Shown one piece after another: positions 1 to 38,253 of a stretch of DNA of 38,253 bases. How positions within the stretch are numbered: position 1 is the first letter of the stretch; every line of letters starts with the position of its first letter. The DNA lies in IMG/VR virus record IMGVR_UViG_3300002821_000002, positions 1-38,253 of that record; one strand, written 5' to 3'. The notes beneath the pieces were generated by a model. That model was given only the letters and a program-made list of their open reading frames with translations. It was not told where the DNA came from and did not search any database. Made by a program: the position numbers and the translations under genes. This DNA is from a virus.

Positions 1-1413
1 GTCAACAAGTTCGGCAACATCGCCGACGGTATCAACGATCTCGCATACTCGACCGGCCTGAGCACCCGGAAGGTCCAGGAGCTCCAGTATGCCGCCGCGA
101 TCTCAAACACCCAGTTCTCCACGGTCACCGGCGGCATCAAACTGTTCACCATGGCGATCGTCGAGGCCAAAGACGAATCATCGGAAGCTGCCAAGGCATT
201 TGCGGCCCTGGGTGTCACGACCATCGGCAGGAGCTACGACCAGATCTGGGAAGACACCGCACGGGCGATCGCGAGCGTTGAAGACGAGACCACACGGGCC
301 GCCCTCGCCAATACCCTCTACGGCCGGGGCTGGCAGGAGATGGTGCCCTACATCCATGACTATGTCCAGAACGCAGACAAGATCAAGGGCATCGACTACC
401 TCACGGACGAGCAGCTGGACGACCTGGAAGAGGCCAAAGCCCAGCTGGACGCGCTCGGGTACAAGCTCACTCTTGTAGAGGGCGGTGTTGTGGCGTTCTT
501 TGCCAACCTCAACTCGGAAGGCAACAAGTTCGAGGTGGAGGACACGGTCCTCGACCGGCTGCTGGCGGGGAAAGGGTTCCAGGAGAGTTTCATGCCATGG
601 CAGACCCCGCAGGAGGAGCCCGGCAAAACCCCGGCAAAACCCCCGATACCGACCAACGCTGCGGACGTGGCATCCGCGATCGTTGAAGGGATGTCCGCTA
701 CTGATGCAAAGGCTGCGTATCTTGAGAGGTATACCATCCCGGGCCTGCAGAAAGCCTATGATGCTCTCAAAGCAAGCGGCGTCGCATCTGCCGAAGATAT
801 CTCTGCAGCGTATATCCAGCTCCAGGAAGCAAAGGAGCAGCTGATCCGGCTGACTGAAGACCAGACAAATTCGGAAAAGACGCTTGCAAAAACCGTGGGG
901 GGTGTGGAGTCAGAATACCAGCGGCTCGAAGATATCAACCGCGACTTCCAGCGGGAGATGAGCATCACCAACCCCCGGGACGTTGCGAGGATCCGTGACC
1001 TCAACATAAGGCACCAGTGGGCGGTCGAGGACCAGCAGAACAAGGTGGGGGTGGCCGAGATGGACAGTGCATCGGTTGTCGCCGCAGCCGCTGCAGCTGC
1101 TGTTGCCGCCGTCCGGAACCCTGCACCGATCCCCGAATCTCCGCCCACAACAGGTGTTCCCGGGGGATATAACAATGTCCTGGAGTTCCACCAGGAGAAC
1201 AGCTTGATGCCCCCTGCCCAGATACAGGGGCCGGTCCAGGAATTCCCATCTCCGATACCCACGCCGGCGACTACCCCGGCGGGGAACATGAACCTGCCGA
1301 ACATCACGTACGGTGACCTGATCGTCAACATCGACGGTAAGCAGCTGATGAAAGTTGGCGGAATCGTTGCAGCTCCCAAAGGAGAGAGATCGCTTATGCA
1401 GGCGGGATACTGA
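1..1413 (+). CDS. Tape measure protein, 5'-truncated
   Basis: Frame open from base 1 (VNKFGNIADGINDLAYSTGLSTRKVQELQYAA...); Ala-rich helical sequence; precedes tail-tip genes, and the chaperone lies at the other end of the window. Confidence 0.85.
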   Translation, partial: VNKFGNIADGINDLAYSTGLSTRKVQELQYAAAISNTQFSTVTGGIKLFTMAIVEAKDESSEAAKAFAALGVTTIGRSYDQIWEDTARAIASVEDETTRAALANTLYGRGWQEMVPYIHDYVQNADKIKGIDYLTDEQLDDLEEAKAQLDALGYKLTLVEGGVVAFFANLNSEGNKFEVEDTVLDRLLAGKGFQESFMPWQTPQEEPGKTPAKPPIPTNAADVASAIVEGMSATDAKAAYLERYTIPGLQKAYDALKASGVASAEDISAAYIQLQEAKEQLIRLTEDQTNSEKTLAKTVGGVESEYQRLEDINRDFQREMSITNPRDVARIRDLNIRHQWAVEDQQNKVGVAEMDSASVVAAAAAAAVAAVRNPAPIPESPPTTGVPGGYNNVLEFHQENSLMPPAQIQGPVQEFPSPIPTPATTPAGNMNLPNITYGDLIVNIDGKQLMKVGGIVAAPKGERSLMQAGY

Positions 1414-6986: not shown

Positions 6987-7006
6987 GATTCCTGAAAAAC
7001 GGCAAG

Positions 7007-7091
7007 TGCGAGGGATGGGATTCGAACCCAAGAACCCCTGCGGGACTAGCCCCTGAAGCTAGCGTCGTTGACCTGGCTTGACTACCCTCGC
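7007..7091 (-). tRNA. trnL: tRNA-Leu(CAG), full length, probable attP
   Basis: GCGAGGG/CCCTCGC acceptor stem, CTAGC-TTCAGGG-GCTAG anticodon arm, long variable arm, TTCGAAT T-loop, A73, no encoded CCA; T5 run just downstream. Confidence 0.95.
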
Positions 7092-7166
7092 TCTTTTGAA
7101 TGATTTTGCACGATCCTGATGCCATGTTCCGTCATGCGGCCCTGAACCTTACGCAGCGTCATGGCG

Positions 7167-7174
7167 TTTATTTA
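7167..7174 (+). promoter_or_regulatory. TATA box for a probably leaderless integrase transcript
   Basis: TTTATTTA 25-32 nt upstream of ATG 7199. Confidence 0.5.
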
Positions 7175-7198
7175 CAGGAAAAACTATATAGAAAAACC

Positions 7199-8326
7199 AT
7201 GTCTGAGGAGTACCTGAAACATCTGCCGCAGCTCGACCCGGCCAACCGGAAAATAATCACGGCTTATATCCGCCGGCAGGAGCTCAAGCAGCTGCAACCG
7301 TCCAGCATCCAGGACAAGACCTGGCGGGTCTACTACCTGCTGAAGTTCCTGCGGTTCAAGGACGCGAAGGCAGTCACCAAGGCGGACCTGGAGGACTATA
7401 TCATCCACCGCAGGAAAACTGTGGCTCCCCGGACCCTGCAGGGCGATATGATCGAACTGCGGATCTTCTTCCGGTACCTCGACCCCGGAAAGGAAAAGGA
7501 GTTCTTCCCCGCTGATGAGAAGATGCAGAAGCCGAAGACCGAGTTCCCGGACCCACTGACCCGGGAGGAGATTGAGCGCTTGGTCAATGCATGCGACACG
7601 GTTCGCGACAAGGCTCTGGTCAAGTTCCTTTGGGATACCGGCTGCCGGCTCGATGAAGCCCTGTCCCTGAACGTGGGGGCCGTCAAATTCGACCAGTACG
7701 GCGGGTCCGTGAAGGTTGGCGGTAAGACCGGGGAGCGGGAACTCTGGCTGATTGACTGCGTGCCGGAGCTCCAGGCATGGGTCAACGCTCACCCCATGAA
7801 AGCGGATCCCGCGGCCCCGCTGTTCATCACCTACTCCCGGTACGGGTTCGGGGCCCGCAGGCTGAACGAGCGGACCGTGCAGAACCTGTGCAAGACCCTG
7901 CAGCGCAATGCCGGTGTCACCACGCGGGTCCATCCCCATGCATTCCGTCATGCCAGGGCCACGGACCGCGCCCGGGAGGGATTCACCGAGATGGAACTCC
8001 GGATCATGTTCGGGTGGAGCAAATCCAGCAACATGCCTGCAACCTACATCCACCTCTCCGGGGCCGATGTCAAGAAAAAGATCCTGCAGAAGGCGGGCCT
8101 GCAGGAAGCCGAGGTCCCCGCGGGAGAGCGGCCCCTGGACCCGGTCAAGTGCCCCCGCTGCGGTCTGCTGAACCAGAAGGGGTTCTATACCTGTGCCCGG
8201 TGCAATACGCCATTATCATCGGAGGCGATGCGGTATATCAAGCTGGGCCGTGAGCTCCTGGAGGATCCCGACATGATGATAGAGTATGCGCGGAAGAAGA
8301 AGCGGGAAGTAAAAGAGGGGGGATGA
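7199..8326 (+). CDS. int: Tyrosine integrase with C-terminal Zn ribbon
   Basis: TGCRLDE (R), GKTGER (K), HAFRH (HxxR), FGWS...PATYIHL (W, Y); CPRCG...CARC; adjacent to tRNA; start 7199 preferred to 7100. Confidence 0.95.
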   Translation: MSEEYLKHLPQLDPANRKIITAYIRRQELKQLQPSSIQDKTWRVYYLLKFLRFKDAKAVTKADLEDYIIHRRKTVAPRTLQGDMIELRIFFRYLDPGKEKEFFPADEKMQKPKTEFPDPLTREEIERLVNACDTVRDKALVKFLWDTGCRLDEALSLNVGAVKFDQYGGSVKVGGKTGERELWLIDCVPELQAWVNAHPMKADPAAPLFITYSRYGFGARRLNERTVQNLCKTLQRNAGVTTRVHPHAFRHARATDRAREGFTEMELRIMFGWSKSSNMPATYIHLSGADVKKKILQKAGLQEAEVPAGERPLDPVKCPRCGLLNQKGFYTCARCNTPLSSEAMRYIKLGRELLEDPDMMIEYARKKKREVKEGG

Positions 8327-17592: not shown

Positions 17593-19608
17593 ATGGACAC
17601 CCCCGCGATCGAGCCCCCGCAAAAACCCACGACGGAGCCGGCAAAGAATACCGAAAAGAAGGCGAAGGCCCCCGCCGAAAAGCGGAAGAAGAAGGAGCCC
17701 GAGGACCCTATCTGCGAAGCCTGCCGGACCCGCAACAAAACCCCCGTCCCCGAGCACGCCTGCGCGTGGTGCAAGGAGGAGCAGGCCACAAAAGGCAGGC
17801 GGGCCTGGGTAACATCGCTGCAGCTCGGGCAGGTTCACCAGGGAGATATGAAAATTATCGGCAAGGAGATCCCGGCCGATTCGATAGACCTCATCTTCAC
17901 AGATCCTGCCTACGTTAAGGACCAGTACCAAGAGGCTTACGCGAACCTTGCGGAGCTGGCCCTGCGGGTGCTCAAGCCGAACGGGTTCCTGATCACGTAT
18001 GCCCCGCAGACGCACCTGGACGAGATCATGGACATGCTCAGGTACACCGGCACCTGGAGACACGGGGGCAAGCTCCAATACTTCTGGATTATCGAATCGC
18101 TGAACGAAGGGCAATCAACCGCGAAAAACCACCAGCGGAACGCGATCTGTCTGCACAAACCGATTCTCGTATTCCAGAAGGCCCATGAAGACGAGCCGCT
18201 GAAAGGTTCCCGCCGATGCTTTGCTGATGTTGTCCGGGGCCGCAGGCAGAAGAAATTCCACCCATGGCAGCAGAGCATCCACGATGTTATCGGCATCATC
18301 AGCCGGTTTATGGACCCGGGCGAGATACTGCTTGACCCCTATGCGGGCACCGGCACGACGCTCAAGGCCGCCAACCTGCTCGGCATGGAGTGGATCGGCA
18401 CTGAGATCGACCCGAAGACCCACGCGATCGCGGTCCGCGAGCTCCAGCAGCAGCCGGTAGACCTGCGGGCATTCGGCATCGAGGCCACGGCTGCAGAGTG
18501 CCAGCGGGAGACGGTACCGGAGCAGAAGGACACGAGCAAGCAGGCATCGATCGAGATCTGCAAAGTGGTGAAAACCCGGAAGGCATCGAAGGAAGCCAGC
18601 GAGGCCCTGGAGAAGTTCTCGGCCTGCCTTGACTGCGAAGCCACTGACGACTGCAGCACCCACGACCCGCGTGCCGGCTGCCTGGATACCGTGAAGGCCA
18701 TCCAGGAAGCGCAGAAAGAGAGGGACCACGGCACCGGAGGCGGCCCGCAGGATTACGTCCAGCACCGATGCAGGTCCTGCGGGCATCACAAGGGGCGCAA
18801 GACCTTTCACGAGAGCTGCCCCCGGCTCGGAGAGCTGCTGTTCAAGGGTGGCACCAAGAGCGCCAAGGTCCTGATGGACGAGACGGCGGCCACCCAGTGC
18901 GAGCACTGGACCGACATCCCGGGGGACTTGTATGCCGGCAAGAAGCCGGAGGAACAGGTCACGACTGTCTATTGTGACGGCAAGGGCCTGTCGCCATCGC
19001 TCGGGACCTGCCCGGACAAGTGCCCCTACAAGGTTAAGGAGAAATCATCCTGCGGATTCACCGATCAGGGGTACCTTCGGATGGAGAGCTGCCCCACCGG
19101 AATCCTGCAGGGAGGCCCAGAGGCCCAGAAAAGCCAGATTGAGAACGCAGCACGGGCCCTGGCACGCCTCTCGGCACACATCCCCTCGGAAGGAGAGTGC
19201 CAGTGCAACCCATGCCCCGACGGAGTGATCCGCTGCGGTATCGGGGACAAGGACTGCCCGTTCAGTAAAAACCCATTCGACGATCTGGCCCTGTGCCCGA
19301 TGCAGAACCCGCGCCGGGTCCGTCAAATCCTGCGGGAACGGCCACTGAAATTCGTGAAGATTGAGAAACAGGAAAGCCAGCCCGAGAAACCGAACTGCGG
19401 AGGGAGATGCCCCTCCCTGAACCGATGCCCGGACAACTGCCCGGAAAGGAAGATCGTACCGGAGGACCACGGGAAGGAGAAGAACTACCCTCAGGGCCGC
19501 TGCGGTGTGACCGGTCAGAAACTTCGAGAGATGCAGGCATGCCCGAATGACCCCCCGAAGAAGAAAAGCGCGAGCAAGAAGTCGAAAAAGGAGAGTGAAA
19601 CCGCATGA
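17593..19608 (+). CDS. Beta-class N4/N6 DNA methyltransferase fused to Cys-rich repeats
   Basis: IDLIFTDPAY (motif IV) precedes LLDPYAGTGTT (motif I); HPWQQ; GTEID; long Cys-rich C-terminal tail. Confidence 0.88.
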   Translation: MDTPAIEPPQKPTTEPAKNTEKKAKAPAEKRKKKEPEDPICEACRTRNKTPVPEHACAWCKEEQATKGRRAWVTSLQLGQVHQGDMKIIGKEIPADSIDLIFTDPAYVKDQYQEAYANLAELALRVLKPNGFLITYAPQTHLDEIMDMLRYTGTWRHGGKLQYFWIIESLNEGQSTAKNHQRNAICLHKPILVFQKAHEDEPLKGSRRCFADVVRGRRQKKFHPWQQSIHDVIGIISRFMDPGEILLDPYAGTGTTLKAANLLGMEWIGTEIDPKTHAIAVRELQQQPVDLRAFGIEATAAECQRETVPEQKDTSKQASIEICKVVKTRKASKEASEALEKFSACLDCEATDDCSTHDPRAGCLDTVKAIQEAQKERDHGTGGGPQDYVQHRCRSCGHHKGRKTFHESCPRLGELLFKGGTKSAKVLMDETAATQCEHWTDIPGDLYAGKKPEEQVTTVYCDGKGLSPSLGTCPDKCPYKVKEKSSCGFTDQGYLRMESCPTGILQGGPEAQKSQIENAARALARLSAHIPSEGECQCNPCPDGVIRCGIGDKDCPFSKNPFDDLALCPMQNPRRVRQILRERPLKFVKIEKQESQPEKPNCGGRCPSLNRCPDNCPERKIVPEDHGKEKNYPQGRCGVTGQKLREMQACPNDPPKKKSASKKSKKESETA

Positions 19609-20345
19609 AAATCGAACAGAAACGGATCGCGACGTTCTGCAACATCTGCAGGGCCCTGGTCCCGGAATGCAGGCTGATCGTCACGCCGGAAGGTATCAGC
19701 ACGCTCGCGGTCGACACCGCCAATGTTGCCATGGTCCAGGTCAACCTGCCGAAAGAATCGTTTGAGGAATTCCGTGAGGAGAAGACCGAGATCGGCATGG
19801 ACGTCACCAAGTGGAAAACCGCGATCGACCTCCTCCAGGATGGCCCGATAACGATCGACCTGGTGAAGACCAGCGGGAAGATCGTCTTCGCAGATGGCCG
19901 GTACACGTATACCCACGTCCCGCTCGACCCGAGGGTCGTAAGGAAACGGCCGAACCCGCCGAATATCACCCTGCCCGCCACGGTCGTCATCGATTCAAAA
20001 GAATTCCATGAATCCATCAAGGCCATGAGCGTGATTGGCGACAAGGTCCGGTTCACCGCCAAGGGAGTCGGCCTCCTGACGCTCGACAGCGAAGGCGATA
20101 CGGACCGCCTCGTGAAAGAGATCCAGGGTAAAGACGGCAGCAAGAACTCCGCGGAAGGCGGCACCGGTACCGTAGCCTCCCTGTTCTCCCTGGATTACAT
20201 GCGGGACATCGCCAAGGTCATGAAAGAGGCCGGCACCATCAACGTCTATGTCGGTCACGAGCACCCGATCCGGTTCGACTTCGACCTCGACGGAATGGAA
20301 TGCTCGTATATGCTCGCGCCCAGGATCGAGCAGGAGGCGGCATGA
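19605..20345 (+). CDS. pcn: PCNA-like DNA sliding clamp (archaeal type)
   Basis: GIS..AVDTANVAMVQVNLPKESF, FSLDYM, PIRFDF, YMLAPRIE; 246 aa. Confidence 0.93.
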   Translation: MKIEQKRIATFCNICRALVPECRLIVTPEGISTLAVDTANVAMVQVNLPKESFEEFREEKTEIGMDVTKWKTAIDLLQDGPITIDLVKTSGKIVFADGRYTYTHVPLDPRVVRKRPNPPNITLPATVVIDSKEFHESIKAMSVIGDKVRFTAKGVGLLTLDSEGDTDRLVKEIQGKDGSKNSAEGGTGTVASLFSLDYMRDIAKVMKEAGTINVYVGHEHPIRFDFDLDGMECSYMLAPRIEQEAA

Positions 20346-20875: not shown

Positions 20876-21645
20876 ACAAGACCGCGATCGAATGGTGCGA
20901 TTACACCTGGAACCCGGTCACCGGCTGCAAGCACGGCTGCCCGTATTGTTACGCCAGGAAGATCGCAGAGCGGTTCAAAGGCAGCAAGGCATGGCCGCAG
21001 GGATTCGAGCCGATGTTCCACCCGGAACGGCTGAAGGATCCCCGCAAGCTCGGTACTAGGTGGACCTGCCCGGAATCTATGGCAAAAGGATACACCATCT
21101 TTGTCTGCTCAATGTCGGACCTGTTCGGCGATTGGGTACCGTTCGAATGGCAGCATCAGGTTTTCGATGCCTGCCTTGCAGCTCCCAGGCATACCTACAT
21201 TTTCCTGACGAAAAATCCCATGGGAATGAAGAAGGCGCTGGAGCAGTGGTTCGACCAACACCCCGGAGTTATCCACGATATCGACAACTGGTGGTTCGGA
21301 GTATCCGCTGGAGATCGCGATTACGCCAGGATGGGCCAATGGGATCCAGTTGCCGCACTCCGGAAAATCCCATCGGTGAATCTCTTCGTCTCGATGGAGC
21401 CACTCCTTCTAAATTTTGAAGCGGTCAACTTCGACGATATCAAGCAGGTCATTGTCGGGGCACAGACCAACCCGACGGTCGTCCCCTCACCGGGATCGAT
21501 CCGGGCCGTTGTCCTTGCAGCCCATGAGGCGGGCGCTGATGTCTTCTTCAAGGACTCGATGACCGGCATCAGCTGGCCAGGGCAGAGCACCTTCGTCAAT
21601 GTCCGAGATCTCGCGTGGCCGCTGCGCAAGGAGGTGAGTGCTTGA
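20872..21645 (+). CDS. DUF5131 (phage Gp37/Gp68) radical-SAM-like protein
   Basis: TAIEWCDYTWNPVTGCKHGCPYCYA, IFVCSMSDLF, IFLTKNP, FVSMEPLL. Confidence 0.92.
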   Translation: MNKTAIEWCDYTWNPVTGCKHGCPYCYARKIAERFKGSKAWPQGFEPMFHPERLKDPRKLGTRWTCPESMAKGYTIFVCSMSDLFGDWVPFEWQHQVFDACLAAPRHTYIFLTKNPMGMKKALEQWFDQHPGVIHDIDNWWFGVSAGDRDYARMGQWDPVAALRKIPSVNLFVSMEPLLLNFEAVNFDDIKQVIVGAQTNPTVVPSPGSIRAVVLAAHEAGADVFFKDSMTGISWPGQSTFVNVRDLAWPLRKEVSA

Positions 21646-21845
21646 GCCATGAACTCCAGCCCCGCTGCGTCGTCTGCGGCTGCCAGCTCCCGCACCTTCC
21701 CAGGGCCGAGGCCCTCCAGAAAGGAGCCGCTGTCGAGATCAACGGTCTCACGTACTACAAGTGCATCGGCCGGCATACCACGGAAGAATGCATGCACGCC
21801 ATCGGCATGATTCCGAAGTTCGTCCGGGCCGGGAGCTGCAAATGA
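21642..21845 (+). CDS. Small Cys-containing protein (TTG start)
   Basis: GGAGGTGA RBS, TTGA overlap; CVVCG. Confidence 0.55.
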   Translation: MSHELQPRCVVCGCQLPHLPRAEALQKGAAVEINGLTYYKCIGRHTTEECMHAIGMIPKFVRAGSCK

Positions 21846-35810: not shown

Positions 35811-36050
35811 TTGAACGAAACTACTGACTGCGTAACTACCACAACATGTGCACTCCACCGCGAACTCTTTGAGACAAAACTCGCCGCGTGCAATGCCCGT
35901 GTAGACGGGATCCTGGAAGAGATCAAGGGGGTCCGTGACCTCCAGAGAACAATCCTCTACGCCCTGATTGTAATCGGATTTGGGGTAGCCTGCACCCTTG
36001 CCGGCGTGATTGTCGGCCGTGGCTTGGACTTCGGGTGGTTGATCCCCTGA
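35811..36050 (+). CDS. Coiled-coil plus TM protein (holin/XhlA-like candidate)
   Basis: TTG start; RVDGILEEIKGVRDLQRTILYALIVIGFGVACTLAGVIVG. Confidence 0.55.
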   Translation: MNETTDCVTTTTCALHRELFETKLAACNARVDGILEEIKGVRDLQRTILYALIVIGFGVACTLAGVIVGRGLDFGWLIP

Positions 36051-36514
36051 TGCAGGCCACGGTCCGTATCAAGGGTATGGCGGAACTCACCCGGAGACTA
36101 CGGGGAGTCAAAACAGCCATCGGTGACACGCTCGAAGAGGCCGGTACCAAAGGGATGCTGGTTGTTGAGGGCGGGGCCCGTAGCAACGTCTCAGTCGATA
36201 TCGGCGAACTCCGACGGGGCATCACCACGAAGACCCTCGAGAAGACCGAGAACTCCGTGAAGATCGGGACCGGCACCAATGTCGAGTACGCCCCGTACCT
36301 TGAATACGGGACCGGCATCTATGCCGAAAACGGCAAGGGTCGGACAACCCCGTGGGTCTACTACTACGCGGGAACAAAGGGGCCGGAAGGCTGGCGGTTC
36401 ACCCGCGGCAATAAGGCAAAACCGTTCCTCCGTCCTGCGTATGACGAGAACAAGGAGAAGGTCCAGGAGGTTGTCCGGGGCGAACTCGAGCGGGCGATCG
36501 AGGGGGCACTGTGA
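36050..36514 (+). CDS. HK97 gp10-like tail completion protein
   Basis: IKGMAEL...VDIGELRRGI...VEYAPYLEYGTG...AKPFLRPAYD. Confidence 0.9.
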   Translation: MQATVRIKGMAELTRRLRGVKTAIGDTLEEAGTKGMLVVEGGARSNVSVDIGELRRGITTKTLEKTENSVKIGTGTNVEYAPYLEYGTGIYAENGKGRTTPWVYYYAGTKGPEGWRFTRGNKAKPFLRPAYDENKEKVQEVVRGELERAIEGAL

Positions 36515-36927
36515 GCTCGATTGATGCTGCCCTTCGTGCGAAACTGGCTGCAGCCACGGCTGTCGTTGCGCTAGTCGGAACCCGGATCTACCCGGACGAG
36601 CTCCCGCAGGGGACCGCCCTGCCGGCTATCCGGTACTCCCTGGTCAGCGATGTTCCCGACCGCCGCGTCCCGGGTTTCCGGGAGGCGCGGGTCCAGGTAT
36701 CTGTCTATGACGATGCCGACAGCCCGACAGATGCGAATACCGTTGCGGAAGCGGTCATTTCTGCGATCTCCCGGACAGATTTCCAGATGGAACCGGCCTC
36801 ATGGACTGCGGGGTCCACCACCTTCACGGTAATCACGTGCAGGCACACCAACGGCCCCCGGCTCCGTGAACCGGACACCCGGTACTGGCACTATCCGGTA
36901 GATTTCCTCATCAAATACAGGATGTGA
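36511..36927 (+). CDS. Tail terminator (DUF3168/gp17-like)
   Basis: VALVGTRIYP..LPQ...PAIRYSLVSD...RVQVSVY. Confidence 0.85.
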   Translation: MSSIDAALRAKLAAATAVVALVGTRIYPDELPQGTALPAIRYSLVSDVPDRRVPGFREARVQVSVYDDADSPTDANTVAEAVISAISRTDFQMEPASWTAGSTTFTVITCRHTNGPRLREPDTRYWHYPVDFLIKYRM

Positions 36928-36936
36928 GACGAAACC

Positions 36937-37668
36937 ATGACAGATGTTGTCGGAAGTGACCTTACGCAGGGCCGCGAGGTCAAGTGGTATTTTGCCGGTA
37001 CAGAAGCCGGTAGCGAGACGAAGACTGCAACTGCAGGCGATGCAAGCGCGGGGTACTTCGCCCTTGCTGCGGATGCGGAGTATGGGTCCGTCGTTGTCTA
37101 CAACGAGACCGACTCGACCATCGTATCCACCGTCACCGAATGCAGTGACACTGCCGGGGCAACCCCCTGCACGGACGGCACCGCGGTCAAATCGGCCCTG
37201 TTCTCGATCACAGACGCGAAGGTCTACGTGATCAAGTATTGCGCCGTCACTGCAGCACTGGTCCACATCGGCACCAGCCGTGACGTGAAGTTCAGCGCTA
37301 AGGCAGACGAGAAGAAGGTCTCGATCCACGGGCAGGCTAACAAGGTCACGAGCGTCGGGGCAACGGAATATTCAGGCTCTCTTGAGGAGTTCCACTACAA
37401 CCAGAGCCTCATCAGCGTGGCCTATGGGCACCAGATGACGGCATCCCCGACCACCGGCAAGGAGAAACACACCACGGCCTTCAGGGGAATGCAGAAGATC
37501 GGCGCCCTGGTCGGCAAGCGGTACAACTCCGCCGGCACCGTGACCCGGAAATACTTCCTGATGGGAACACAGTTTTCCGGTATCGACGACACGTTCCCGA
37601 CTGACGACTTCTATTCACGGACCCTGGCGTTCTCGGCAGACTACAAGACAGAGACCGATCTCTCCTGA
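36937..37668 (+). CDS. Major tail (tube) protein
   Basis: 243 aa between terminator and chaperone; EYSGSLEEF and FYSRTLAFSA strands. Confidence 0.75.
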   Translation: MTDVVGSDLTQGREVKWYFAGTEAGSETKTATAGDASAGYFALAADAEYGSVVVYNETDSTIVSTVTECSDTAGATPCTDGTAVKSALFSITDAKVYVIKYCAVTAALVHIGTSRDVKFSAKADEKKVSIHGQANKVTSVGATEYSGSLEEFHYNQSLISVAYGHQMTASPTTGKEKHTTAFRGMQKIGALVGKRYNSAGTVTRKYFLMGTQFSGIDDTFPTDDFYSRTLAFSADYKTETDLS

Positions 37669-37690
37669 TCCTCCATTTTTTGGGTGACGC

Positions 37691-38200
37691 ATGACCAATC
37701 CGAAGAAAGTGAATTATGAGGACGACCCGGCCCTGACGGCACGGTTCCGGGCACGCATGACCGAGATACGGCACACCGATGCCGAGAGTCTCACCATCGC
37801 GGAACGGCTGATGAGGCGGGCGTTTGACCAGCGGATGACGATCCCGTTCCCCGTGGACGAAGGCGAGCCCATACCGGTAGAGGTAAGGATGCCCCTTGCC
37901 GCCGAGCTCGAGGAGCTTGCCAGCATATACGTAGCGAACCGGGCCGCCCGGACCGACAAGGGCCGGAGGGACCTGAACCAACGGACCTGCGAACTGCTCG
38001 CCAGCCTGTGCATTGACGAATCGCTGGACGAGGGATTCTTCGACAGCGGAGCGCTGACCGTCCCGGACCTGTACCAGATCATCTTCGAGATCCTGCTGGA
38101 GAACCGCAGGAGGATCACGAGCGCCGGATCCTTTCGGCCAGAGTCCAGCCGGGGTGGGCCTGTTCCAGCTGAGCCAGAGCCTGGGAAAGTTCCCCCATGA
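37691..38200 (+). CDS. Tail assembly chaperone (gpG-like)
   Basis: Follows tail tube; low-complexity tail after TCC-TTT-CGG. Confidence 0.75.
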   Translation: MTNPKKVNYEDDPALTARFRARMTEIRHTDAESLTIAERLMRRAFDQRMTIPFPVDEGEPIPVEVRMPLAAELEELASIYVANRAARTDKGRRDLNQRTCELLASLCIDESLDEGFFDSGALTVPDLYQIIFEILLENRRRITSAGSFRPESSRGGPVPAEPEPGKVPP

Positions 38201-38253
38201 GTTCAGCGAGTGCACGCAGGAAGAGATCGCATACATGACCGCCGCTTGGAACA
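38133..38253 (+). CDS. Frameshifted chaperone extension (gpT-like), 3'-truncated
   Basis: +1 frame FGQSPAGVGLFQLSQSLGKFPHEFSECTQEEIAYMTAAWN; bounded by TGA 38055-57 with no start codon before 38133. Confidence 0.7.

What the first reader, a model, noticed from the sequence alone, without database searches (positions are those of the whole stretch)
38129..38253. +1 programmed frameshift candidate TCC-TTT-CGG in the tail chaperone
Seen: in-frame TCC TTT CGG (38129-37). The 0 frame continues as a Pro/Gly-rich tail and stops at 38200. The +1 frame is open to the window end, reads like a gpT domain and has no start codon after TGA 38055-57. Known: the G/GT chaperone pair before tape measure is usually made by a -1 shift; UCC-UUU-CGN is the influenza PA-X +1 motif, and I recall similar TTT-CGN sites proposed in haloarchaeal siphoviruses. 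Inference: +1 recoding on methanogen ribosomes.
Basis: partly seen in the sequence, partly recalled or inferred. Interest (0 to 1): 0.75.

Follow-up and report, generated by a model that had tools for sequence, protein, structure and literature searches.

The report
Forward frameshift in archaeal-virus tail chaperone
The gene just before the tail-length ruler of this archaeal virus very probably makes a short and a long helper protein, because a few ribosomes slip one base forward at a conserved TTT-C site; this trick has been predicted for salt-loving archaeal viruses but never shown by experiment in archaea.

Summary
TCC TTT CGG is in frame at 38129-38137 of a 169-aa gene (37691-38200) that sits between the tail-tube-position gene and the tape measure gene. 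The 0 frame stops at 38198-38200, and the +1 frame is open from 38058 to the window end.

An identical contig (L012) shows that the +1 ORF ends 11 codons past the window, 7 nt before the tape measure start. This gives G = 169 aa and G-T = 198 aa.

- **Site conservation:** TTT-C is invariant in 11 lineages, whose G proteins are 27-100% identical to the window's. The next codon is CGG or CGC in ten and CAG in one.
- **Where a shift is possible:** stop codons in the two frames confine any shared shift site to 5 codons before through 3 codons after TTT.
- **Selection:** purifying selection switches from frame 0 to frame +1 at the site. In the overlap, +1-frame differences are 60 synonymous and 24 not; 0-frame differences are 0 and 75.
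- **No own start:** the +1 ORF has no conserved start codon.
- **No assembly error:** contigs from four studies show no indel there.

Programmed +1 frameshifting is therefore strongly supported, though only by comparison of sequences. CGG is the commonest Arg codon in this virus, so the rare-codon pause invoked for PA-X does not obviously apply.

The same TTT-CGN idea is already published for HF1-group haloviruses, and this scan has noted it on other DNA. This is a new member of a known kind. The host is archaeal; a methanogen host is unproven.

The parts
36937..37668 (+). 243-aa gene in the major tail (tube) protein position, directly downstream of the tail terminator gene
   Evidence: Identified by synteny only. 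It follows the HK97-gp10-like gene (36035-36514) and the gp17-type tail terminator gene (36511-36927), both Pfam hits. It has no family hit of its own. The gene is conserved in all relatives.
37691..38200 (+). Gene G: the short, 0-frame tail assembly chaperone (169 aa)
   Evidence: It lies immediately upstream of the tape measure gene. In distant relatives that next gene carries PF10145 PhageMin_Tail. The AlphaFold model has pLDDT 89 and its last helix ends at residue 146. The best near-full-length structural matches include the HK97 tail assembly chaperone 2ob9 at Z 5.7, which is weak. Language-model look-alikes include Phage_TAC_1 and Phage_TAC_5 clusters.
38129..38137 (+). Shift site TCC TTT CGG. 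The proposed +1 slip of P-site tRNA-Phe runs from TTT (38132-38134) to TTC (38133-38135), so C38135 is read again or skipped and decoding resumes at GGC 38136
   Evidence: TTT-C is invariant in 11 lineages. The codon-level invariance is unusual for this gene. Stop codons confine any shared site to 5 codons before through 3 codons after TTT.
38136..38253 (+). T extension in the +1 frame: the first 39 of 50 codons. The last 11 codons and the stop lie beyond the window end (L012:5564-5598)
   Evidence: The peptide is conserved across all relatives (alignment A5). In the overlap the +1 frame has 60 synonymous and 24 non-synonymous codon differences, against 0 and 75 in the 0 frame. dN/dS in the +1 frame is 0.06 in the overlap and 0.20 beyond it. 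The model is a three-helix mini-domain with pLDDT 86.
1..1413 (+). 3' part of the tape measure gene, which is split by the permuted ends of the record
   Evidence: L012 runs from the window end through 288 further bases into window position 1. Its 552-aa gene L012:5606-7264 ends at window 1413.

Best explanation
Gene 37691-38200 is the tail assembly chaperone of a temperate archaeal siphovirus-type virus. Most ribosomes read it in frame and make G (169 aa).

A minority slip one base forward when tRNA-Phe (anticodon GAA) sits in the P site on UUU (38132-38134). The tRNA re-pairs with UUC (38133-38135), and decoding resumes at GGC (38136). This adds a 50-residue, three-helix T domain and yields G-T (148 + 50 = 198 aa). 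G-T ends 7 nt before the tape measure start.

By analogy with lambda gpG/gpGT, the G parts would coat the tape measure protein and the T domain would recruit the tail tube protein.

- **Shown by comparison of sequences:** the +1 ORF is a real coding region, it has no start of its own, and it can only be entered within a few codons of the invariant TTT-C.
- **Inferred:** the P-site slippage mechanism, a low efficiency, and the binding partners.
For: - **Position:** the gene order is neck protein, tail terminator, tube-position gene, G, T, tape measure. The downstream gene carries PF10145 in distant relatives.
- **Site conservation:** TTT-C is invariant in 11 lineages whose loci have 44-59% GC, although TTT is the minor Phe codon here at 21%.
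- **Family-wide Phe:** in an alignment of 32 family members (25-63% identity to the window protein), F148 is one of only three invariant columns, and R149 is over 90% conserved.
- **Confinement:** +1-frame stops 5 codons upstream in several relatives and 0-frame stops 3 codons downstream in two others bracket the site.
- **Frame switch in selection:** in the 30 codons upstream, frame 0 has 136 synonymous and 173 non-synonymous differences, against 59 and 274 in frame +1. In the overlap, frame +1 has 60 and 24, against 0 and 75 in frame 0. Beyond the stop, frame +1 has 77 and 99, against 23 and 154 in frame 0.
- **No own start:** start codons in the +1 frame sit at codons 5, 7, 9, 12 or 34, after the invariant Gly6 of T.
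- **T always abuts the next gene:** in every relative T ends a few bases before the tape measure start.
- **Domain boundary:** the site lies just after the last G helix, and T folds confidently on its own.
- **No indel** in contigs of four studies.
- **Precedent:** HF1-group haloviruses have TTT-CGC in the same place (PMC7230728; checked on HF2).
Against: There is no direct evidence: no peptide, reporter or ribosome-profiling data, and no RNA run was available.

No stimulator was found.
- CGG is the commonest Arg codon of the virus (49%).
- There is no conserved downstream RNA structure (consensus -7 kcal/mol; z-score -0.44).
- There is no Shine-Dalgarno-like element at the 3-nt spacing seen in prfB. 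An AGGAGG lies 18 nt upstream and encodes the conserved Arg-Arg.

The chaperone identity of G rests on position and on weak structural similarity. G matches no Pfam or PHROG family. An invariant Phe could in part reflect a protein-level need.
Confidence: 0.85

Rival explanations
1. T is a separate small gene of about 43-45 aa, translated from its own start inside the 3' end of G, as some gene callers annotate it.
For: Gene callers list 45-aa and 43-aa ORFs in L006-L008 and in L009/L010. The window has a GTG at 38154.
Against: The start positions differ between relatives (+1 codons 5, 7, 9, 12) and L011 has none before codon 34. GTG 38154 is AAG in a 96%-identical strain. The invariant Gly6, and the purifying selection measured from +1 codon 8 on, lie upstream of most of these starts. 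No Shine-Dalgarno sequence precedes them.
Confidence: 0.06
2. The frame change is real but happens elsewhere or by another route, for example a -2 slip at CCC CCA TGA at the end of the 0 frame, or transcriptional slippage.
For: In this virus the two frames overlap from 38058 to 38200. The run CCCCC before TGA would allow re-pairing of tRNA-Pro.
Against: CCC CCA is CCC TCA in L005 and L009. A shift there would leave the well-conserved +1-frame stretch encoded upstream of it untranslated, although that stretch is under strong purifying selection. In L018 and L019 the 0 frame stops 3 codons after TTT. A run of three T is too short for polymerase slippage (established knowledge).
Confidence: 0.05
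3. It is an assembly error or a pseudogene: a one-base indel in a gene that is really a single frame.
For: None beyond the frame break itself.
Against: The same two-frame layout appears in more than a dozen independent assemblies from ENA, JGI, NCBI and Logan. It also appears in contigs of four studies with no indel. The 0-frame stop is kept in every relative. No in-frame fused form was found, which is weak evidence.
Confidence: 0.01

Closest known systems
Tail assembly chaperone pair of HF1-group haloarchaeal myoviruses (HF1, HF2, Serpecor1, Hardycor2; Hafunaviridae), with a predicted +1 shift at TTT-CGC (PMC7230728)
   Same: [quoted passage not shown] TTT-CGN lies at the very end of the first protein, which ends in F-R. 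The +1 ORF runs up to the tape measure start. This was checked on HF2: AAG TTT CGC AGA TAG. In both cases the shift is predicted only.
   Different: No sequence homology is detectable (hhalign probability 0.1; no tblastn hit). HF1-group viruses are myoviruses of halophiles, whereas this is a siphovirus-type module from methanogenic habitats. Here the 0 frame runs 21 codons past the site rather than 2. Here the evidence includes a measured switch of selection between frames across a deep family.
Lambda gpG/gpGT and the conserved frameshift of long-tailed phages (Levin 1993 and Xu, Hendrix and Duda 2004, as cited in PMC5009743 and PMC8785237)
   Same: The genes sit in the same position. A short abundant product and a rare C-terminally extended product are made from one start. 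The T ORF has no start of its own and ends at the tape measure gene.
   Different: Lambda shifts -1 on a heptamer (G GGA AAG, from my own knowledge), whereas here the shift is +1 on UUU_C. The proteins have no sequence similarity. The T domain is only 50 aa.
UUU_CGN class of +1 sites in eukaryotic viruses: influenza A PA-X UCC_UUU_CGU (PMC3498833) and plant amalgaviruses (PMC5052127)
   Same: This virus has the same eight bases, UCC UUU CG. The proposed P-site re-pairing is the same, UUU to UUC by tRNA-Phe. Neither case needs a 3' RNA structure.
   Different: The ribosomes are archaeal rather than eukaryotic. The A-site codon CGG is the commonest Arg codon here, whereas CGU is rare in the hosts of influenza. 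The E-site UCC is kept only in the closer relatives and is GAA, GCC or CCC in distant ones.
Haloarchaeal myovirus HSTV-2 (+1 proposed) and siphoviruses HVTV-1 and HCTV-1, 2, 5 (-1 proposed) (PMC5009743, PMC8211752)
   Same: These are tailed archaeal viruses with predicted chaperone frameshifts.
   Different: The siphoviruses in that set use -1 shifts. None has been verified by experiment. No homology was tested here.

Membership tests
G/GT-type tail assembly chaperone with programmed frameshift | Two overlapping ORFs lie between the major tail protein gene and the tape measure gene | tested here: met
   Gene order in the window and in L012. The next gene carries PF10145 in L017 and L018.
G/GT-type tail assembly chaperone with programmed frameshift | The second ORF has no conserved start and is reachable only by a change of frame within the overlap | tested here: met
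   Start-codon survey, strain variant, and stop-codon bracketing of the site.
G/GT-type tail assembly chaperone with programmed frameshift | A conserved slippery site lies in the overlap | tested here: met
   TTT-C is invariant in 11 lineages. The direction is +1, not the usual -1.
G/GT-type tail assembly chaperone with programmed frameshift | Chaperone fold, or a match to a known chaperone sequence family | tested here: inconclusive
   No Pfam or PHROG hit for the window protein or for any of 32 relatives. Foldseek gave nothing at E <= 0.001. With VIA-align the best near-full-length matches are 5ir0 (Z 6.4), 3fgx (Z 6.3) and the HK97 chaperone 2ob9 (Z 5.7, 98 residues aligned), all within the noise range for helical proteins.
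G/GT-type tail assembly chaperone with programmed frameshift | Both products are made in a fixed ratio; G binds the tape measure protein and T binds the tube protein | not testable with these tools
UUU_CGN +1 frameshift motif class | An in-frame UUU is followed by CGN, so that tRNA-Phe can re-pair with UUC | tested here: met
   TTT CGG in the window. Across relatives the following codon is CGG or CGC in ten lineages and CAG in one.
UUU_CGN +1 frameshift motif class | A slowly decoded (rare) A-site codon | tested here: not met
   CGG makes up 49% of Arg codons (26.6 per 1000) in 17 genes of the virus. The host's tRNA pool could not be examined.
UUU_CGN +1 frameshift motif class | A stimulatory E-site codon UCC, as in PA-X | tested here: inconclusive
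   TCC never changes in the eight sequences of the closer clade examined and is also present in L017. It is GAA, GCC or CCC in L018-L020.
UUU_CGN +1 frameshift motif class | A trans-frame product with the junction at Phe | not testable with these tools
   This needs mass spectrometry or a reporter assay.
HF1-group (Hafunaviridae) chaperone pair | Sequence homology of the G protein | tested here: not met
   hhalign of alignment A3 against HF2 HrrHF2_550 gave probability 0.1. tblastn against 50,697 deposited phage and virus genomes found no relative.

The most novel reading that the evidence does not exclude
UUU_C followed by a CGN codon would be a +1 shift signal that works on archaeal as well as eukaryotic ribosomes, without a rare A-site codon or an RNA structure. 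It would have been fixed independently, or kept since before detectable homology was lost, in at least two unrelated-looking chaperone families of archaeal tailed viruses: this family of 73 representative clusters, and the HF1 group. That would point to a property of the tRNA-Phe / UUU_C / CGN combination itself. One possibility is the wyosine-modified archaeal and eukaryotic tRNA-Phe. It would also give archaea their first tractable +1 recoding model.
Probability: 0.3. Interest if true: 0.65.

Novelty: new member of a known kind. Interest (0 to 1): 0.45.

Why it matters
Only one programmed frameshift has been shown by experiment in Archaea: the -1 shift in the fucA gene (PMC8211752). Every case in an archaeal virus is still a prediction.

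This locus is a clean, well-bounded test case. The site is a single invariant tetranucleotide, confined to a window of 9 codons. The two products differ by 29 residues, and there is a diagnostic tryptic junction peptide.

It also shows that a whole family of tail chaperones is currently annotated as one hypothetical protein plus an unannotated gap or a spurious 45-aa ORF. The family has 73 representative clusters, no Pfam or PHROG model, and no relative among deposited virus genomes.

Because CGG is not a rare codon here, the case also bears on why CGN follows UUU in +1 sites across domains of life.

Tried and rejected
- **Searches for related loci.** Scans of viral contigs and genome contigs with the G protein, its alignment and the capsid protein found nothing. 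Alignment A3 was too diverse to scan with. So no provirus in a named host was found, and the host genus stays unknown.
- **Family and fold searches.** Pfam and PHROGs gave no hit for G, T or the tube-position protein. Foldseek against PDB gave nothing significant.
- **In-frame fusions.** A search for in-frame G-T fusions, using the T peptide and longer proteins, found none, which is weak evidence. An HMM of T found no T-like part inside any called G homologue.
- **Complex prediction.** Complex prediction for the T domain with the tube-position protein was not available.
- **Expression.** No RNA holder was listed among the sequencing runs. All runs laid were contigs, so rare read-level variants could not be seen.
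- **RNA stimulator.** No convincing conserved structure lies downstream of the site.
- **Alternative shift site.** CCC CCA TGA at the end of the 0 frame was rejected: it is not conserved, and a shift there would bypass the conserved +1-frame peptide.
- **Upstream AGGAGG.** It lies 18 nt before TTT, which is too far for the prfB-type effect, and it encodes the conserved Arg-Arg.
- **-1 frame.** It closes within 12-35 codons and is not conserved.

Full report
**What is in the sequence**

The ORF 37691-38200 (+, 169 aa) contains TCC TTT CGG at 38129-38137 as codons 147-149. Its 0 frame runs on for 21 Pro/Gly-rich residues to TGA 38198-38200. The +1 frame is open from 38058 to the last base of the window and has no ATG, GTG or TTG before the GTG at 38154. 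The -1 frame closes after 12 codons.

The window is a complete database record, classed as linear and 62% complete. An ENA contig that is identical over the last 5563 nt (L012) continues for 288 nt and then reaches window position 1. So the record is a circular permutation of a genome of about 38.5 kb, broken inside the tape measure gene.

On L012 the +1 ORF has 50 codons after the shift point. It stops 7 nt before the GTG start of a 552-aa gene, and a GGAGG lies within its last codons. The predicted products are G (169 aa) and G-T (148 + 50 = 198 aa).

**Context**

Upstream lie an HK97-gp10-like neck gene, a gp17-type tail terminator gene (both Pfam hits) and a 243-aa gene in the tube-protein position. 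Downstream is the tape-measure-position gene. In distant relatives that gene carries PF10145 PhageMin_Tail.

The virus also encodes a large terminase, an integrase and a PCNA sliding clamp. A tRNA-Leu lies next to the integrase. The PCNA's nearest Atlas clusters are archaeal. The sequence, or a 96%-identical strain, occurs in hydrocarbon, oil-sands and freshwater metagenomes. An archaeal host is therefore supported. A methanogen host is plausible but not shown.

**Conservation of the site**

Ten close homologues of G were found and the DNA of most was fetched. In seven distinct lineages whose G proteins are 63-100% identical to the window's, TCC TTT CG is invariant, while the flanking codons vary.

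A profile search of 1.8 billion representative proteins found 73 family members. In an alignment of 32 of them (25-63% identity to the window protein), F148 is one of only three invariant columns, and R149 is over 90% conserved. This holds even though the proteins diverge or end right after it.

DNA of four distant members (27-39% identical; loci of 44-57% GC) shows TTT CGC three times and TTT CAG once. The E-site codons there are TCC, GAA, GCC and CCC. In each, a +1 ORF of 46-64 codons encodes a recognisably homologous peptide and ends just before the tape measure start.

TTT is the minor Phe codon in this virus (21%). Every other invariant Phe column in G uses TTC, wholly or mostly. Only 2 of 22 invariant six-fold-degenerate columns never change codon, and S147 (TCC) is one of them.

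**Is the +1 frame translated, and from where?**

Codon differences among seven lineages show a switch of purifying selection at the site.

| Region | Frame 0 (synonymous / not) | Frame +1 (synonymous / not) |
|---|---|---|
| 30 codons upstream | 136 / 173 | 59 / 274 |
| Overlap (+1 codons 8-21) | 0 / 75 | 60 / 24 |
| Beyond the 0-frame stop | 23 / 154 | 77 / 99 |

By the Nei-Gojobori method, dN/dS in the +1 frame is 0.06 in the overlap and 0.20 beyond it.

- Start codons in the +1 frame are not conserved. They fall at codons 5, 7, 9 and 12, and L011 has none before codon 34.
- The window's GTG is AAG in the 96%-identical strain.
- In several relatives a +1-frame stop lies 5 codons upstream of TTT. 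In two others the 0 frame stops 3 codons after it. A positionally conserved shift must therefore lie in a window of about 9 codons, in which only TTT-C is invariant.

**Structure**

The AlphaFold model of G has pLDDT 89 and is helical with one beta hairpin. Its last helix ends at residue 146, so S147-F148 sit exactly at the domain boundary. The T extension alone models as a three-helix mini-domain with pLDDT 86.

Fold searches are only suggestive of a tail assembly chaperone. Foldseek found nothing significant. With VIA-align the three best near-full-length matches are two small phage-related or uncharacterised proteins (5ir0, 3fgx) and the HK97 tail assembly chaperone 2ob9, at Z 5.7-6.4. That is within the noise range for helical proteins. 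Language-model neighbours include clusters in which some members carry Phage_TAC_1 or Phage_TAC_5. No Pfam or PHROG model matches any family member.

**Mechanism**

The best reading is +1 slippage in the P site. tRNA-Phe (GAA) on UUU, with a G:U wobble pair, re-pairs with UUC. The next codon read is then GGC. This is the mechanism established for influenza PA-X at UCC_UUU_CGU (PMC3498833) and inferred for UUU_CGN in amalgaviruses (PMC5052127).

There are differences. CGG is the commonest Arg codon of this virus (49%), so a "hungry" A site is not evident. There is no conserved downstream RNA structure and no close upstream Shine-Dalgarno-like element. The efficiency is unknown. By analogy with lambda (PMC5009743), a few percent would suffice. 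The roles of G (binding the tape measure protein) and T (binding the tube protein) are inferred from lambda. The complex predictor was not available.

**Comparison with what is known**

Dyall-Smith and colleagues (PMC7230728) noted a TTT-CGC inside a perfectly conserved 15-bp stretch at the end of the first chaperone ORF of HF1-group haloarchaeal myoviruses, and proposed a +1 shift. I confirmed the layout on HF2: AAG TTT CGC AGA TAG, with the +1 ORF running to the tape measure start. I found no detectable homology to the present family.

Reviews list HSTV-2 as a probable +1 case and the haloarchaeal siphoviruses as -1 cases. Only one frameshift has been proven by experiment in Archaea (PMC5009743, PMC8211752). 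Forward shifts in chaperone genes are also annotated in bacteriophages (PMC10885494).

Earlier notes of this scan describe the same kind of TTT-CGN site on other DNA. The scan has therefore found this phenomenon before. I did not treat those notes as evidence.

**Verdict**

This is a new, well-documented member of a known but experimentally unproven kind. It also extends the kind to a large, unannotated chaperone family of siphovirus-type archaeal viruses.

Noticed in passing
window 1-1413 and 38136-38253; L012:5564-5851: The record is a circular permutation of a genome of about 38.5 kb. An ENA contig of 38,682 nt (38,253 + 288 + a 141-nt k-mer overlap) bridges the window end to its start. The tape measure gene is split over the two ends. 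The 62% completeness estimate is probably too low.
   Followed up: partly
window 7006-7091 (-) and 7100-8326 (+): A tRNA-Leu(CAG) gene directly abuts the integrase gene. This is probably the attP site and could be used to find the host.
   Followed up: no
window 19605-20345 (+): The virus encodes a PCNA sliding clamp. Its nearest Atlas clusters are archaeal (Methanobacteriota) or viral.
   Followed up: partly
window 38139-38197 (0-frame tail of G): The 21-residue Pro/Gly-rich tail of G shows no purifying selection of its own (0 synonymous against 75 non-synonymous differences). Its apparent conservation is a by-product of the overlapping T frame. Distant relatives end G 3-6 codons after the site.
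   Followed up: yes
window 37600-38253 in runs X1, X2, X6, X8: A 96%-identical strain (24 differences in 654 nt) is present in four studies. Its only indel is one extra C in the intergenic spacer at 37680/37681.
   Followed up: yes
L021 (HF2, AF222060) 21028-21811 (-): The HF2 chaperone pair has TTT CGC two codons before the stop, and its first protein also ends in F-R. Yet it has no detectable homology to this family. This is either convergence on the same site or very old shared ancestry.
   Followed up: partly
window 38099-38104: A perfect AGGAGG lies 18 nt (six codons) upstream of TTT. It encodes the conserved Arg-Arg of G. The spacing seems too long for a prfB-type stimulator, but this was not tested.
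   Followed up: no
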